Shown here: positions 52,889-56,132 of the stretch, in pieces | Layout: each line of letters opens with the position of its first letter | How positions within the stretch are numbered: the stretch's first letter is position 1 | Source of the DNA: Microthyrium microscopicum | Lineage: Eukaryota | Assembly (NCBI GenBank): GCA_010405405.1 | Contig: MU004230.1 | Coordinates: 158,627 to 222,626 of the forward strand | Direction: 5' to 3' | DNA: 64,000 nucleotides | The notes under the pieces: generated by a model | Seen by the model: only the letters and a program-made list of their open reading frames with translations | The model's database searches: none | Told to the model about the DNA's origin: nothing | Translations under genes and position numbers: made by a program

Positions 52889-53314
52889 GAATCGCAAGAT
52901 AAAAACTCTTTGTCATGATACGAACCTGTAGACAGTACCGAACGACATCCCGGTGCGGTGTATTACATACAAAACGAATTAATGCATTTAACTGGAAACA
53001 TGAATAGCGTTCGAGATTCTACAATACATGATGCGCTTCTAGTCAGGGAAATTTTCCCCATGGCACTGTTGAAACAAAAGATTGTTTATTTCCCAACGTA
53101 CTCGATAGTGAGTCAAGCATTTTACGCATTCTATGGGAATGAAGTACATGATAGTAAAGGGCAGCATATGGTAGACATCATACTTGATGGGAGTGCCAGT
53201 TATTTTGTCCCCCAGTTGAACGCCCCTCTACTTGTCCAACCTCAAGGACAATTATCCAACCAGAAGAAATATTTACACCAAGCCAAACACCCATACCACC
53301 AGCATCACCATACA

Positions 53315-54444
53315 ATGGCCTCCCCGGATTCAAAAGACTACACTATCCAAACCACGCATGGCACCCTCGCCATCACTGACGTCGGCACCGGCTCTCCAGC
53401 TCTGTTGATGATTCACGGCAACTCATTTAACAAACGCATCTTCCACCATATTCTGACCTCACCTCTCTCCAAATCCCACCGACTCCTCGCCTTCGATCTC
53501 CCCGGCCATGGCGCCTCCACCAACGCTCCTGACGCAGAGCGCTCCTACTCCATGCCCGGCTACGCTGACGCCGCCATTGAAATCCTCACGAAACTCGAGA
53601 TAGGGCCCGTCATCGTCCTCGGCTGGAGTCTAGGTGGCCACATTGCCATAGAAATGATCCCCAAATATTCACCCCTCCTCGGTATCATGATAGTCGGCAG
53701 TCCGCCGGTCAACGCTGGTGAAGTCAACACTGCTTTCACGCTAGCCAGCGGTGATGACGAGGAAGGTTGGCGGTCCGCATATGCTGCGCGCGGAGATCTG
53801 ACTGAGGCGGAGATGCTGGAGTATGCACACGTATGTGCTGATCCGCCGTATGAAGACTGGATGGGGGAGAGCGTTGTGCGAACGGATCAAAGAGCGCGGA
53901 AATTGATGTTTGAGGCGTTTGCGACCAGCCCAGAGTTGAAGCAACGGACGATCGTGGAGGAGGAGAAGAAGGTAAGATTAACCGCATGCCCGCTCATATT
54001 GCTTGACGACATCCCACCAATTCCGAATTGTCATGCTTGGTCTTTGCAGCTCCAGTTTCAATCGGTGTCTGGTCAATTCCATAACATCGTATCTCCCAAT
54101 ACATTCGATGACTCGCATAGAAGGCGTTTCCTATACGAATGCGATAGATCCCATCAAATACGATAGGTCTTGTACGGTTTTACGCCGAAAAGGCGATATG
54201 GAGCGTGTTAGCTCTAAACGTAGTCTAGACTAACGAATTCCAGGTGGTTGTGGCGGTGGTGAATGGCAAGGACGAGCCGTGGATGGATCTGGGATGGATT
54301 AAGGGGGTCAAATATGGTAATCTGTGGCGGGGTGAGTGCGTGGAGATGGAGGGCTTGTTGCATGCACCGTTTTGGGCGGATCCGACGGGCTTTGCAAAGC
54401 TATTGGAGAGTTTTGTGGAAGATGTGTCGAGGGGCAGTGGGTGA
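53315..54444 (+). CDS. alpha/beta hydrolase, AidH-like (putative N-acyl-homoserine lactonase/esterase)
   Basis: Exons 53315-53971 and 54244-54444; LLMIHGNS, DLPGHG, RSYSMPGYADA, GWSLGGH, RTD.RAR.LMFE.F, AVVNGKDEP, GNLW, HAPF. Confidence 0.9.
53972..54243 (+). other. long (272-bp) intron; candidate introner-like element copy 2
   Basis: AAG|GTAAGA...ACTAAC...CAG|GT; removal restores the hydrolase in frame; homologous to intron 9345-9525; contains several inverted repeats. Confidence 0.6.
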
Positions 54445-54673
54445 AGTATTTGTTCTGGCGGAGGTCATATGGCAGGACAGCTCACTAGGTGCGTGAAGGT
54501 GTGTATGAATGAAACGATTCGTTGTTTTGCCACGGAAGTGGATGATATGAAGAAATCTATACACATAAGCCGCCTTTATACTCCAGCTATGCAGTAGTAA
54601 TAACAAAGACATTCCATGAAGCGAACGACCAGCAAGAACAGCCGTCAAAGCTAATTAAATCGATTGACACAGC

Positions 54674-56132
54674 CTAGTTTTCAGAGGCACCTGAAGTTTC
54701 CTTGTTCTGCTTCCATTGCCATTCTAGGATGATGGGTACAAAGTGCCATAATCCAAATTCTGGCCAGTAGCAGTCTACAAACCGGACTTCGGTGGTTTGA
54801 TGACATTGCCAGAGCATAAAGTCACTTAGTCTCTCGACGCCGCTAGTTCTGATGAGGAGATCCAAAGGTGGAGCGTCACTTCCGGTATAGGTATGAGATG
54901 TCAATGTATTCTCGTCAATGTTTTCGATATCTGGATACATTGGTGGCAGTGGCGGACGAGGTGACGCGTTTGCGTGTTCACCGTTGTTCCCCAAAGTAGT
55001 AGATTCGGAAACAGCAGTTTTGGTTTGGTAGTCTGTAAGTTTATCGGCAAGAGACTGTAGTTCTTGAAGCTGAGCGTCGCTGAGATCAAAGTCTAGTATA
55101 TCTCGAACTTCAATAAGTTTTTCTTCCTGGGACAGTGTTATATCCTTTAGATATACGAGAATTGAAGAAGTCGCTCCGGCTATGACCTCTTCGTCAGCAG
55201 TTGCAGTGTTCTCATCTGCTGCTTCATCTAGTAAACTTTCGACAGCTTGAAGAATGTCTTGGTACACCGCACCTGTGCCAGGAGTGGATGGCTTATAGAC
55301 GTAATCTTCCTCCTCTGTAGATTCCATAGCTCTGGTCGATTCTGGCATGCCACTCGTGGCCCGTTCAAGAGATTTGATTCGTCCAGCCTCGATTTGTCGA
55401 GCGATGTGGGTTTCTGAGAAGGGTCTCCTTAATCTGGGCCTGAGTGGTTGGCAGTATTGTACTACCGTCTTTTGAATGGCAGTTGCCATCTCATCACGCG
55501 ACGTATATGGTGCGCAAATGTTCAATACGGCCCTAGAAATCGTGAGTTAGTCAAGCATAGTAGGATGCATTGGCGAAGCGTACTTTGTGTTATGGCGTGT
55601 CAGTTCCATAGCTTGGTCTAAAGTCTCCAAAACATCGGGTCGAATCATCTCCCTCCTTCCTAGCAGTTGTATCTTCGCTCCATATTTGTCGAGTAATTGC
55701 CCATGTTGTGCTAGTTGCCCGAGCCTCATCTTGGCCATGTCCATGAGATTGTCAACCTCGCTTCTGGAACGTTTGAAATTCTCGATGCTGAAAGCATATA
55801 CGGTGACTACTTTGACTCCTATTTTATAGCAGATCTCGAGTATCTATGGAGGTAAACGCGTCAGTATGTACGTTCAAAATGTATACTACTTGGAGCCGAC
55901 TTACTCTAGCCAATGCTTCAAACCCGGCACTGTGTCCTTCGGTCACCTCTTGCCTCTTGCTGCGGGCAAACCGTCGGTTGCCGTCCATGACGAACGCAAT
56001 GTGTTTTGGTACTGGGCCATGCCGTAATGCGCCGAGCAGAACATCTTTCACAGCAGCACTACCGTGCTCGAGAAGAAACTCGACAGGAGGCGATTGGACG
56101 ACCCACTTTCGAAAAGAAGCTGAGGATTTCAT
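54674..56132 (-). CDS. RER2: cis-prenyltransferase / dehydrodolichyl diphosphate synthase with an inserted helical domain
   Basis: [66 protein letters not shown]; introns 55844-55904 and 55533-55583. Confidence 0.93.

What the first reader, a model, noticed from the sequence alone, without database searches (positions are those of the whole stretch)
55028..55297. Brr2 plug-like domain inserted inside RER2 cis-prenyltransferase
Seen in sequence: between RPFSETHI and SESTTL...YPDIENI (usually a low-complexity loop in Pezizomycotina Rer2) lies an in-frame ~90-aa helical segment, [23 protein letters not shown]...[17 protein letters not shown]...[11 protein letters not shown]...[14 protein letters not shown]. 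From memory it matches, motif by motif, the N-terminal plug domain of spliceosomal helicase Brr2 (Y+P.T..T...Y..IL / EVVRSAADAVLE.LKD / DKKKEIDDLL / FNELVNLGKKITDY). I know of no dolichol-synthesis enzyme with this domain. Inference: a captured spliceosomal domain in an essential ER enzyme that kept its catalytic motifs.
Basis: partly seen in the sequence, partly recalled or inferred. Interest (0 to 1): 0.8.

Follow-up and report, generated by a model that had tools for sequence, protein, structure and literature searches.

The report
Brr2 plug domain inside fungal Rer2
A small four-helix domain otherwise known from the spliceosomal helicase Brr2 sits, expressed and in frame, inside a surface loop of a dolichol-synthesis enzyme in one group of fungi; the capture is real, but what the domain does there is unknown.

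Summary
Window 55028-55297 (minus strand) encodes residues 242-331 of a 448-aa Rer2/DHDDS-type cis-prenyltransferase (P0003, named by its source as Microthyrium microscopicum).

- **Homology to the Brr2 plug:** Pfam BRR2_plug matches at 29.5 bits against a cutoff of 25. It matches 43 of 52 relatives on their own. A profile built only from 12 Rer2 inserts finds human, worm and yeast Brr2 plugs at E 1e-8 to 1e-6.
- **Fold:** the AlphaFold model (pLDDT 89) superposes on human Brr2 residues 102-182 at Z 13.1 and 1.3 Å rmsd.
- **Expression:** a spliced transcript contig removes both small introns and keeps the insert.
- **Distribution:** the insert is found in Microthyrium, Trichodelitschia, Venturia and many metagenomic relatives. 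Other Dothideomycetes have a short acidic loop at the same place.
- **Origin:** the inserts form one group in the careful trees, and the organism's own Brr2 keeps its plug.
- **Divergence:** the copy evolves fast and is strongly acidic, with median net charge -11 against -1 in Brr2.

Function is inferred only. No paper reporting it was found in three full-text searches, although public Pfam pre-annotations already flag it.

The parts
55905..56132 (-). Exon 1 of the cis-prenyltransferase gene (residues 1-76, with the [10 protein letters not shown] catalytic motif)
   Evidence: The spliced translation equals P0003. The transcript contig joint lies at 55843/55905.
55844..55904 (-). Intron 1 (61 nt, GTAAGT...CCATAG)
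   Evidence: Skipped by the run X1 contig. Intron ends printed.
55584..55843 (-). Exon 2 (residues 77 to about 163)
   Evidence: Aligns to human DHDDS.
55533..55583 (-). Intron 2 (51 nt, GTACGC...TTCTAG)
   Evidence: Skipped by the run X1 contig, with the cut placed +1. Intron ends printed.
54674..55532 (-). Exon 3 (residues about 163-448 plus the stop codon). It holds the end of the catalytic N-part, the whole expanded loop with the plug, and the C-terminal catalytic part ([19 protein letters not shown]).
54929..55468 (-). Expanded loop, residues 185-364. These 180 residues stand where human DHDDS has 11 (residues 169-179).
   Evidence: phmmer alignment to 6w2l_A: query 35-184 and 365-437 align to DHDDS 19-168 and 180-250.
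55298..55405 (-). Linker 1, residues 206-241. Low-confidence and acidic. It follows the conserved RPFSE(T/S)HI motif, which insert-less relatives also have.
   Evidence: pLDDT below 50 at residues 220-238. Alignment.
55028..55297 (-). Brr2-plug-like four-helix domain, residues 242-331 (profile envelope 240-333). Net charge -15.
54935..55027 (-). Linker 2, residues 332 to about 362. Low-confidence. It contains the S-x-STTL motif that insert-less relatives share, and ends at YPD.
   Evidence: pLDDT below 50 from residue 335. Alignment.

Best explanation
Shown: the segment is a true homologue of the Brr2 plug domain, a small domain made of two helical hairpins. It is embedded in a surface loop of the catalytic subunit of the dolichol-pathway cis-prenyltransferase (Rer2/DHDDS family). 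It is translated as part of the enzyme.

Inferred origin: the domain was captured once, in an ancestor of a Dothideomycete group that includes Microthyriales, Phaeotrichales and Venturiales. The most likely donor was that lineage's own BRR2, which kept its own plug. The piece landed in a loop that was already long, disordered and acidic, and it left the catalytic core unchanged.

Inferred function: the copy has kept its fold and length but lost most sequence constraint, and it has become about ten charge units more acidic than any fungal Brr2 plug examined. I think it most likely works as a folded, flexibly tethered acidic extension of the host loop. In that reading it is a steric and electrostatic appendage that can transiently cover a basic surface of the enzyme complex or hold a partner, in the same general way that a tethered plug works in Brr2 and ASCC3. 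I do not think it has anything to do with splicing. I put the domain identity and exonic status at about 0.95, a single capture at about 0.85, an own-lineage donor at about 0.7, and the tethered acidic appendage role at about 0.35.
For: **Homology**
- BRR2_plug scores 29.5 bits (cutoff 25) on the 90-aa segment.
- 43 of 52 relatives match the model on their own at E<=0.01, best 4.1e-8.
- A profile of 12 inserts hits human Brr2 101-182 at E 1.3e-8, C. elegans Brr2 at 2e-7 and yeast Brr2 at 1.1e-6. The top 5 of 10 PDB hits are all Brr2.
- Against 1.84 billion representatives, the same profile gives 296 hits at E<=1e-3. Of the best 150, 9 have cis-prenyltransferase flanks, 74 have Brr2 flanks and 67 have neither, most of these being short fragments.
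- BLASTP of the insert against the organism's own Brr2 (residues 126-207) gives 29% identity and E 1e-7. The insert of P0023 reaches 36-41% identity and E as low as 1.6e-18 against Dothideomycete Brr2.

**Fold**
- The AlphaFold model of the insert has pLDDT 89.4 and four helices.
- Foldseek's top two hits are Brr2, with TM 0.76 and 0.73 and rmsd 1.6 and 1.4 Å.
- VIA-align's top five are all Brr2 plug, best Z 13.1, rmsd 1.3 Å over 81 residues, 30% identity. ASCC3 follows at Z 8.2, and unrelated folds score 6.9 or less.
- The solved plug is described as 'two roughly perpendicular helical hairpins' (PMC4699386, passages read).

**Expression**
- The run X1 contig skips exactly 55532/3-55582/3 and 55844-55904 and is continuous over 54400-55531 with no differences.

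**Distribution and origin**
- Among the 76 of 120 listed homologues in which both flanking motifs were found, 31 have a motif spacing of 193-233 residues and 45 have 114-167.
- The only named insert-bearing species are Microthyrium, Trichodelitschia and Venturia effusa.
- The inserts form one side of a branch at 100/100 (LG+G4) and 96/95 (LG+C20) support.
- Median BLAST bits are at least as high against 120 Pezizomycotina-type Brr2 plugs as against 16 distant ones for all 11 inserts tested. For P0023 the medians are 63 and 43.
- All 120 listed Brr2 relatives, including the organism's own, carry PF21188.

**Tethering**
- In the whole-protein model the plug has pLDDT 85-97, between linkers with pLDDT below 50.

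**Charge**
- Inserts have median net charge -11 (n=53). Pezizomycotina-type Brr2 plugs have -1 (n=120). In this organism it is -15 against -1.
- The host loop is already acidic in the 21 insert-less relatives, median -5 over about 65 residues.
Against: - **Weak sequence constraint.** Among 32 insert-bearing proteins, the plug's mean pairwise identity is 0.32. That is no higher than its linkers (0.31-0.32) and far below the catalytic parts (0.77-0.78). This argues against a tightly constrained interface and fits a passenger domain.
- **No co-evolved partner surface seen.** The net charge of the catalytic core does not differ between insert-bearing and insert-less proteins (-4 to +2 against -4 to +3).
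- **Borderline Pfam scores in context.** The whole protein scores 24.1 bits, just under the cutoff of 25.
- **Weak single-method statistics.** Foldseek's own E-values are not significant (0.11 and 0.30). The VIA-align tool notes that helical models can reach Z of about 13 by common arrangement, so the structural match counts only together with the sequence evidence.
- **Donor unresolved by trees.** LG+G4 places the inserts with Pezizomycotina Brr2 (97/98). LG+C20 with two extra rows places them beside a long-branch distant Brr2. AU tests reject neither placement (p 0.47 and 0.50). The taxa of the 'distant' Brr2 rows are unknown; they are defined only by 31-52% identity to P0129 beyond the plug, where a match was found.
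- **No functional data exist.**
Confidence: 0.6

Rival explanations
1. Tolerated passenger. The plug was captured by chance into a permissive disordered loop and has no function of its own. Selection only keeps it folded, soluble and in frame so that it does not harm an important enzyme. The acidification simply follows the composition of the host loop.
For: The plug's pairwise identity (0.32) equals that of the linkers. The host loop is acidic in insert-less relatives too. The core charge is unchanged. GC3 of the insert is 0.32 against 0.49 for the rest of the CDS, which may reflect weaker codon selection, though this rests on 90 codons only.
Against: The fold, length (76-94 aa) and reading frame are kept across at least three orders and dozens of metagenomic lineages. 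The sequence is still recognised by the Brr2 model in 43 of 52 members, while the neighbouring low-complexity stretches differ in length and are hard to align. No loss of the insert within the insert-bearing group was seen, but sampling is thin.
Confidence: 0.3
2. Brr2-like autoinhibitor. The tethered plug docks on the catalytic core or on the Nus1 partner and gates substrate entry or membrane binding. This would give the clade its own switch on dolichol synthesis, by the same principle as plug autoinhibition in Brr2 and ASCC3.
For: In Brr2 the plug blocks RNA access, and its removal raises RNA affinity (PMC4699386, passages read). In ASCC3 the plug-like domain must be covalently tethered to inhibit (PMC7608686, passages read). 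Here the domain is tethered by two flexible linkers and is strongly acidic. Diphosphate-binding sites of cis-prenyltransferases are basic (established knowledge, not tested here).
Against: No co-evolved basic surface was found. The plug sequence is poorly conserved. The surface that binds the helicase in Brr2 has no counterpart in this enzyme.
Confidence: 0.12
3. Chance or convergent resemblance. The segment is an acidic helical stretch that merely looks like the plug.
For: The single-sequence phmmer E-values against PDB are not significant (1.7 and 3.9). Foldseek E-values are 0.11 and 0.30. Three repeat proteins with a short similar motif (P0140, P0171, P0207) also score against the insert profile, which shows that part of the pattern is common.
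Against: Significant forward and reciprocal profile matches cover the full domain. Pairwise E reaches 1.6e-18 for less diverged members. The model superposes at 1.3 Å over 81 residues with 30% identity.
Confidence: 0.02
4. Artefact. The segment would be an assembly chimera, an unannotated intron, or a mis-joined gene model.
For: None found.
Against: A spliced transcript contig is colinear with the window across the insert, with no differences. The same architecture appears in independent assemblies of three named species and many metagenomes. Both introns have canonical GT..AG ends and lie elsewhere.
Confidence: 0.01

Closest known systems
Brr2 (SNRNP200) N-terminal plug domain, Pfam PF21188
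   Same: The sequence family is the same, shown by forward and reciprocal profile matches. The four-helix, two-hairpin fold is the same (PMC4699386). In both cases the domain is tethered by disordered linkers.
   Different: The host protein is a cis-prenyltransferase, not a Ski2-like helicase. The domain is internal, in a loop, rather than near the N-terminus. No PWI-like domain follows it. Net charge is about -11 rather than about -1. It carries an extra 7-10 residue acidic stretch between helices 1 and 2 (alignments). Its tree branches are much longer than those of Brr2 plugs.
ASCC3 plug-like domain (human residues 59-142)
   Same: It is a four-helix plug-like fold. It was the next-best structural match after Brr2: Z 8.2, rmsd 2.8 Å over 89 residues. 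It is a tethered autoinhibitory element (PMC7608686).
   Different: Identity in the structural alignment is only 7%. ASCC3 did not appear among the profile hits against PDB sequences. It too sits in the N-terminal region of a helicase.
Rer2 / DHDDS catalytic subunit of eukaryotic cis-prenyltransferase (PF01255; PDB 6w2l, 6z1n)
   Same: Prenyltransf scores 236 bits. The match to human DHDDS is E 8e-54, with the [14 protein letters not shown] and IRTSG..RLSDF.LWQ blocks aligned.
   Different: 180 residues, including a folded domain, stand where DHDDS has 11. Insert-less Dothideomycete relatives have about 50-100 disordered residues there.

Membership tests
Brr2 plug domain (PF21188) | Match to the curated Pfam model at or above its gathering score | tested here: met
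   29.5 bits for the 90 aa, 27.5 for a 147-aa piece and 25.2 for exon 3, all against a cutoff of 25. The whole protein scores 24.1, just below the cutoff. 43 of 52 relatives match at E<=0.01.
Brr2 plug domain (PF21188) | Reciprocal: a profile of the candidate family finds bona fide Brr2 plugs over the full domain | tested here: met
   Human Brr2 at E 1.3e-8 (residues 101-182), worm at 2e-7, yeast at 1.1e-6. At least 74 of the best 150 representatives have Brr2 flanks.
Brr2 plug domain (PF21188) | Fold: two roughly perpendicular helical hairpins | tested here: met
   Tested on a predicted model only. It has four helices and pLDDT 89.4. It superposes on human Brr2 102-182 at Z 13.1 and rmsd 1.3 Å over 81 residues. 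The fold description comes from PMC4699386.
Brr2 plug domain (PF21188) | Context: N-terminal region of a dual-cassette Ski2-like helicase, followed by a PWI-like domain | tested here: not met
   The host has only Prenyltransf and BRR2_plug. No helicase, Sec63 or PWI domain is present. The segment is therefore a homologue of the domain, not a Brr2 protein.
Brr2 plug domain (PF21188) | Function: docks between RecA2 and HB and blocks RNA loading | not testable with these tools
   There is no helicase in the host protein. The surface is strongly acidified relative to Brr2.
Rer2/DHDDS cis-prenyltransferase (PF01255) | Family model match and conserved catalytic blocks | tested here: met
   236 bits, E 4.6e-70. 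The DHDDS alignment shows the [20 protein letters not shown] and IRTSG..RLSDF.LWQ blocks.
Rer2/DHDDS cis-prenyltransferase (PF01255) | Heteromer with a Nus1/NgBR subunit; dehydrodolichyl diphosphate synthase activity | not tested
   No genome is held, so the Nus1 orthologue could not be fetched. There is no biochemical assay.
ASCC3 plug-like domain | Structural and sequence similarity to ASCC3 residues 59-142 | tested here: inconclusive
   Z 8.2, rmsd 2.8 Å, 7% identity. ASCC3 is not among the profile hits in PDB.

The most novel reading that the evidence does not exclude
The captured plug has been put to use as a tethered gate on the dolichol-pathway cis-prenyltransferase. An acidic pseudo-substrate or steric plug would reversibly cover the basic diphosphate-binding mouth or the membrane-binding face of the Rer2-Nus1 complex. 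That would carry the Brr2/ASCC3 principle of autoinhibition by a covalently tethered plug from RNA helicases into lipid-carrier synthesis, and give one fungal clade its own control point on N-glycosylation capacity.
Probability: 0.12. Interest if true: 0.75.

Novelty: new variant of a known kind. Interest (0 to 1): 0.55.

Why it matters
In the papers read here, the plug domain is described only in the N-terminal regions of Brr2 and, as a plug-like fold, ASCC3. In both it is a tethered autoinhibitor of a helicase. Here the same domain was copied into an unrelated, conserved ER enzyme and kept over a long time, long enough for the copies to diverge to about 30% identity across at least three fungal orders.

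That makes it a clean natural case of domain capture into a permissive loop. The donor and the recipient can both be identified, both are present in the same genomes, and insert-less sister lineages are available for comparison. It allows a direct test of what a regulatory domain becomes once it is separated from its partner. The marked shift to negative charge and the loss of sequence constraint with the fold retained are already measurable outcomes.

On the practical side, it marks a clade-specific feature on a conserved glycosylation-pathway enzyme in a group that includes plant pathogens (Venturia), and it gives a phylogenetic marker that joins Microthyriales, Phaeotrichales and Venturiales. 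The biological importance remains unknown until a deletion is tested.

Tried and rejected
- **Docking test.** The plug was scored as partner against the two halves of the catalytic core. The verdict was 'no answer' (score 0.02, mark 0.34, alignments not used, partner fold uncertain in at least one run). It is not evidence either way.
- **Whole genome.** No genome is held for this window. I could not look for a second cis-prenyltransferase paralogue, for Nus1, or for the BRR2 gene's DNA and intron positions.
- **Cluster names.** I obtained named Brr2 relatives through the search for homologous proteins instead. The taxa of the 'distant' Brr2 rows stay unknown.
- **RNA run search.** No listed holder is on record as RNA. 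The one holder, X1, is labelled 'RNA?', and its contig proved to be spliced when laid. Contigs show presence only, so a minor isoform lacking the insert cannot be excluded.
- **Quick trees.** The 69-row LG+C20 careful search did not finish, so only the quick tree was seen. The quick LG+G4 search on 34 rows missed a tree better by 7.4 lnL. I discarded that quick search in favour of the careful runs.
- **Last homologue search.** Run with the insert profile and 'longer' lengths, it returned only 25 hits, all cis-prenyltransferases, because candidates were crowded out. It added no new named species. Whether Verruconis and Tothia, whose Brr2 groups with Microthyrium and Trichodelitschia, carry the Rer2 insert is unknown.
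- **Whole-protein model.** Confidence was poor outside the plug (mean pLDDT 61.6) because most alignment rows were C-terminal fragments. It says nothing about where the plug sits relative to the core.
- **Extent of the captured piece.** tblastn extends the own-Brr2 match about 35 residues upstream of the plug, but pairwise alignments of other members limit the shared part to the plug plus roughly 10-15 residues on each side. I do not claim more than that.
- **Literature.** Three full-text searches found no paper that joins a Brr2 plug with a cis-prenyltransferase. Subscription journals are not covered.
Full report
**1. What is in the sequence**

The finding lies on the minus strand.

The gene has three exons: 56132-55905, 55843-55584 and 55532-54674. 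The two introns are 61 and 51 nt long, with GTAAGT...CCATAG and GTACGC...TTCTAG ends. The spliced translation is identical to a recorded 448-aa protein, P0003, which its source names as a di-trans-poly-cis-decaprenylcistransferase of Microthyrium microscopicum.

Pfam finds Prenyltransf (PF01255) at 236 bits. Against solved structures the best match is human DHDDS at E 8e-54. Query residues 35-184 and 365-437 align to DHDDS 19-168 and 180-250. So 180 residues here occupy the place of 11 in the human enzyme, and the [14 protein letters not shown] and IRTSG..RLSDF.LWQ blocks are all in place. The insert is residues 242-331.

**2. Is it a Brr2 plug?**

*Sequence, forward.* The curated model BRR2_plug (PF21188) matches the 90-aa segment at E 1e-6 and 29.5 bits, against a cutoff of 25. 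Larger pieces score 27.5 and 25.2 bits. The whole protein scores 24.1 bits, just under the cutoff. Scanned one by one, 43 of 52 relatives match the model at E<=0.01, the best at 4.1e-8.

*Sequence, reciprocal.* A profile built only from 12 Rer2 inserts (alignment A2) was searched against all PDB sequences. It found 10 sequences at E<=10. The top five are all Brr2: human at 1.3e-8 (residues 101-182), C. elegans at 2e-7, yeast at 1.1e-6, and two fragments at 3.2e-5 and 8e-3. The other five have E of 0.45 or more.

The same profile was searched against 1.84 billion representative proteins and gave 296 hits at E<=1e-3. I classified the best 150 by their flanks:
- 9 are cis-prenyltransferases.
- 74 are Brr2.
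- 67 have neither flank; most are short fragments.

I scanned ten of those 67 against Pfam. Seven carry BRR2_plug. Three are repeat proteins that match only a short motif.

*Pairwise.* The insert aligns to the organism's own Brr2 (P0276, residues 126-207) at 29% identity and E 1e-7. Less diverged members do much better: P0023 reaches 36-41% identity and E as low as 1.6e-18 against Dothideomycete Brr2.

*Structure.* AlphaFold2 on the insert alignment gives a confident four-helix model, with pLDDT 89.4 and pTM 0.82. Foldseek against the PDB ranks two Brr2 chains first, with TM 0.76 and 0.73, rmsd 1.6 and 1.4 Å, and 27-29% identity. Its E-values (0.11 and 0.30) are not significant on their own. 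VIA-align gives Z 13.1 and rmsd 1.3 Å over 81 residues, at 30% identity, to human Brr2 102-182. The first five rows are all Brr2 plug, the ASCC3 N-terminal fragment follows at Z 8.2, and unrelated folds score 6.9 or less. The crystal-structure paper describes the plug as two roughly perpendicular helical hairpins (PMC4699386, passages read).

Sequence and structure together leave little room for chance.

**3. Is it expressed as part of the enzyme?**

One public run (X1) holds 90% of the sampled words of the gene region. When laid on the window, its 4450-nt contig skips exactly the two introns, with CT..AC ends on the plus strand, which is GT..AG for the minus-strand gene. It is continuous from 54400 to 55531 with no differences, so it covers the whole insert and both linkers. 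The segment is therefore exonic in a spliced transcript. Contigs cannot exclude a rare isoform without it.

**4. Distribution**

The exon-3 protein has 1599 homologues at E<=1e-3, of which the best 120 are listed. In 76 of those 120, both flanking motifs (PYTSRDE-like and [12 protein letters not shown]) could be found. The spacing falls into two classes: 193-233 residues in 31 proteins and 114-167 in 45. The other 44 are fragments or lack one motif.

The alignment shows that the long class carries the conserved Y-x-P ... (K/R)-(I/L)-(T/S)-D-(Y/W) block. The short class has a low-complexity S/T/D/E/P-rich loop in the same place. Both classes share RPFSE(T/S)HI before it and STTL...YPDPE after it.

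Named insert-bearers:
- Microthyrium microscopicum (Microthyriales)
- Trichodelitschia bisporula (Phaeotrichales)
- Venturia effusa (Venturiales)

The rest of the insert-bearers are unnamed metagenomic proteins.

Named proteins without the insert include Aulographum, Phyllosticta, Neofusicoccum, Cryomyces, Elasticomyces and the lichen fungus Acarospora (shown in the alignment). Going by motif spacing alone, Rhizodiscina, Delitschia, Zopfia, Diplodia and Piccolia also lack it.

Many rows already carry PF01255 together with PF21188 in their precomputed annotation.

**5. Origin**

The organism's own Brr2 (P0276, 2227 aa) and all 120 listed Brr2 relatives keep PF21188. The plug was therefore copied, not moved.

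Both careful trees of plug sequences put all 12 sampled Rer2 inserts on one side of a branch, at 100/100 under LG+G4 with 34 rows and 96/95 under LG+C20 with 36 rows. That fits a single capture.

Where this group attaches to the Brr2 tree is not resolved:
- LG+G4 separates the distant Brr2 rows at 97/98 and places the inserts among Dothideomycete Brr2 (72/91).
- LG+C20, with two more distant rows, places them beside a long-branch Brr2.
- AU tests reject neither alternative (p 0.47 and 0.50).

Two similarity measures lean towards a fungal donor from the same lineage:
- The insert profile scores 56-64 bits on the top-ranked Dothideomycete-type Brr2 plugs (the organism's own scores 49.8) and 39-57 bits on the other Brr2 rows examined. 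Human, worm and yeast Brr2 score 38, 35 and 32 bits.
- For all 11 inserts tested, the median BLAST score against 120 Pezizomycotina-type plugs is at least as high as against 16 distant ones. For P0023 the medians are 63 and 43 bits, with top identities of 41% and 26%.

In three of those eleven inserts the single best hit was marginally higher in the distant set. The distant rows carry no taxon names.

In the 64-kb window, Brr2 itself matches nothing but the insert.

**6. What has happened to the domain since**

Among 32 insert-bearing proteins that cover all regions, mean pairwise identity by region is as follows:

| Region | Mean pairwise identity |
|---|---|
| Plug | 0.32 |
| Linkers | 0.31-0.32 |
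| Flanking catalytic parts | 0.77-0.78 |

The tree branches of the inserts are several times longer than those of the Brr2 plugs of the same fungi. Even so, length, helix pattern and frame are kept, and the fold is predicted with confidence.

The clearest directional change is in charge:

| Set | n | Median net charge | Range |
|---|---|---|---|
| Rer2 inserts | 53 | -11 | -16 to -4 |
| Pezizomycotina-type Brr2 plugs | 120 | -1 | -5 to +2 |
| Distant Brr2 plugs | 14 | -4 | -8 to +2 |

In this organism the insert is -15 and its own Brr2 plug is -1.

The host loop is acidic even without the insert, with a median of -5 over about 65 residues in 21 insert-less proteins. The catalytic core is no more basic in insert-bearers.

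In the whole-protein model the plug has pLDDT 85-97 and is flanked by stretches below 50. The rest of that model is poor, with mean pLDDT 61.6.

**7. How it most likely works**

The following are shown: a folded plug homologue, flexibly tethered, in a surface loop of an otherwise intact cis-prenyltransferase, transcribed in frame, of single origin, fast-evolving and acidified.

The rest is inferred. In Brr2 and ASCC3 the plug acts only when tethered, as a steric competitor for the substrate path (PMC4699386; PMC7608686). Its helicase partner surface is absent here, and its own surface has been remade, so a splicing-related role is very unlikely.

The reading I favour, at about 0.35, is a folded acidic extension of an already acidic loop. 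It would be a steric and electrostatic appendage that may transiently shield a basic surface or hold a partner. A pure passenger role (about 0.3) is nearly as likely, and the low sequence conservation speaks for it. A specific autoinhibitory gate (about 0.12) is the most interesting option. I found no co-evolved surface that would support it. A docking prediction gave no verdict and counts for nothing.

**8. Comparison with what is known, and novelty**

The domain belongs to the Brr2 plug family by sequence and fold. The protein is not a Brr2: it has no helicase, Sec63 or PWI-like domain. The enzyme belongs to the Rer2/DHDDS family and has an unusual insertion.

Three full-text searches found no paper that links the two:
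- Brr2 / plug domain / cis-prenyltransferase
- BRR2_plug / PF21188 / IPR048863
- Rer2 / Dothideomycetes / dehydrodolichyl diphosphate synthase / domain insertion

These searches cover open-access papers and preprints only. The architecture can be seen in public precomputed Pfam annotations.

I rate it a new variant of a known kind. It is a well-documented natural domain capture with both donor and recipient at hand. Interest is moderate until a function is shown.

Noticed in passing
P0123 (974 aa): An unrelated protein carries several tandem plug-like copies (5 matched stretches; BRR2_plug at 102 bits) followed by a weak match to the NAM-associated C-terminal domain. It looks like a plant-type captured or duplicated gene fragment. 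So the plug has been copied out of Brr2 more than once in eukaryotes.
   Followed up: partly
P0140, P0171, P0207: Long repeat proteins with units such as MQDPSLTPQEKQQRIQQIM match only positions of about 44-75 of the insert profile. Pfam assigns them to the SXP/RAL-2 (ANIS5_cation-bd) family. The LKDxSLxxEEK helix motif of the plug is therefore not unique to it.
   Followed up: partly
window 55028-55297 versus the rest of the CDS (54674-56132): GC at third codon positions is 0.32 in the insert against 0.49 in the rest of the coding sequence. Overall GC is 0.44 against 0.49. With only 90 codons, the cause (relaxed codon selection or amino-acid make-up) is open.
   Followed up: no
window about 55400-55440 and 54990-55010; alignment: Short motifs in the loop are conserved in Dothideomycete Rer2 with and without the insert: RPFSE(T/S)HIxRNI just after the catalytic helix, and S-x-STTL before YPDPE. 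This suggests the loop has a function of its own, independent of the plug, perhaps as modification or binding sites.
   Followed up: no
P0276 and P0003: The organism's BRR2 and this RER2 are each recorded on a contig of the same length (4,545,044 bp), so they probably lie on the same scaffold. BRR2 is not within this 64-kb window.
   Followed up: partly
window 52919-54444 (+) and 54400-54700: The neighbouring plus-strand gene ends close to the 3' end of the RER2 gene, in convergent orientation. The run X1 contig continues about 2.7 kb beyond 54400, so it probably merges transcripts of both genes.
   Followed up: no
Brr2 plug tree: In the quick tree, the Brr2 plugs of Tothia, Microthyrium, Verruconis and Trichodelitschia group together (SH-aLRT 92). 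This matches the set of orders in which the Rer2 insert is found. Whether Tothia and Verruconis Rer2 carry the insert was not established.
   Followed up: no
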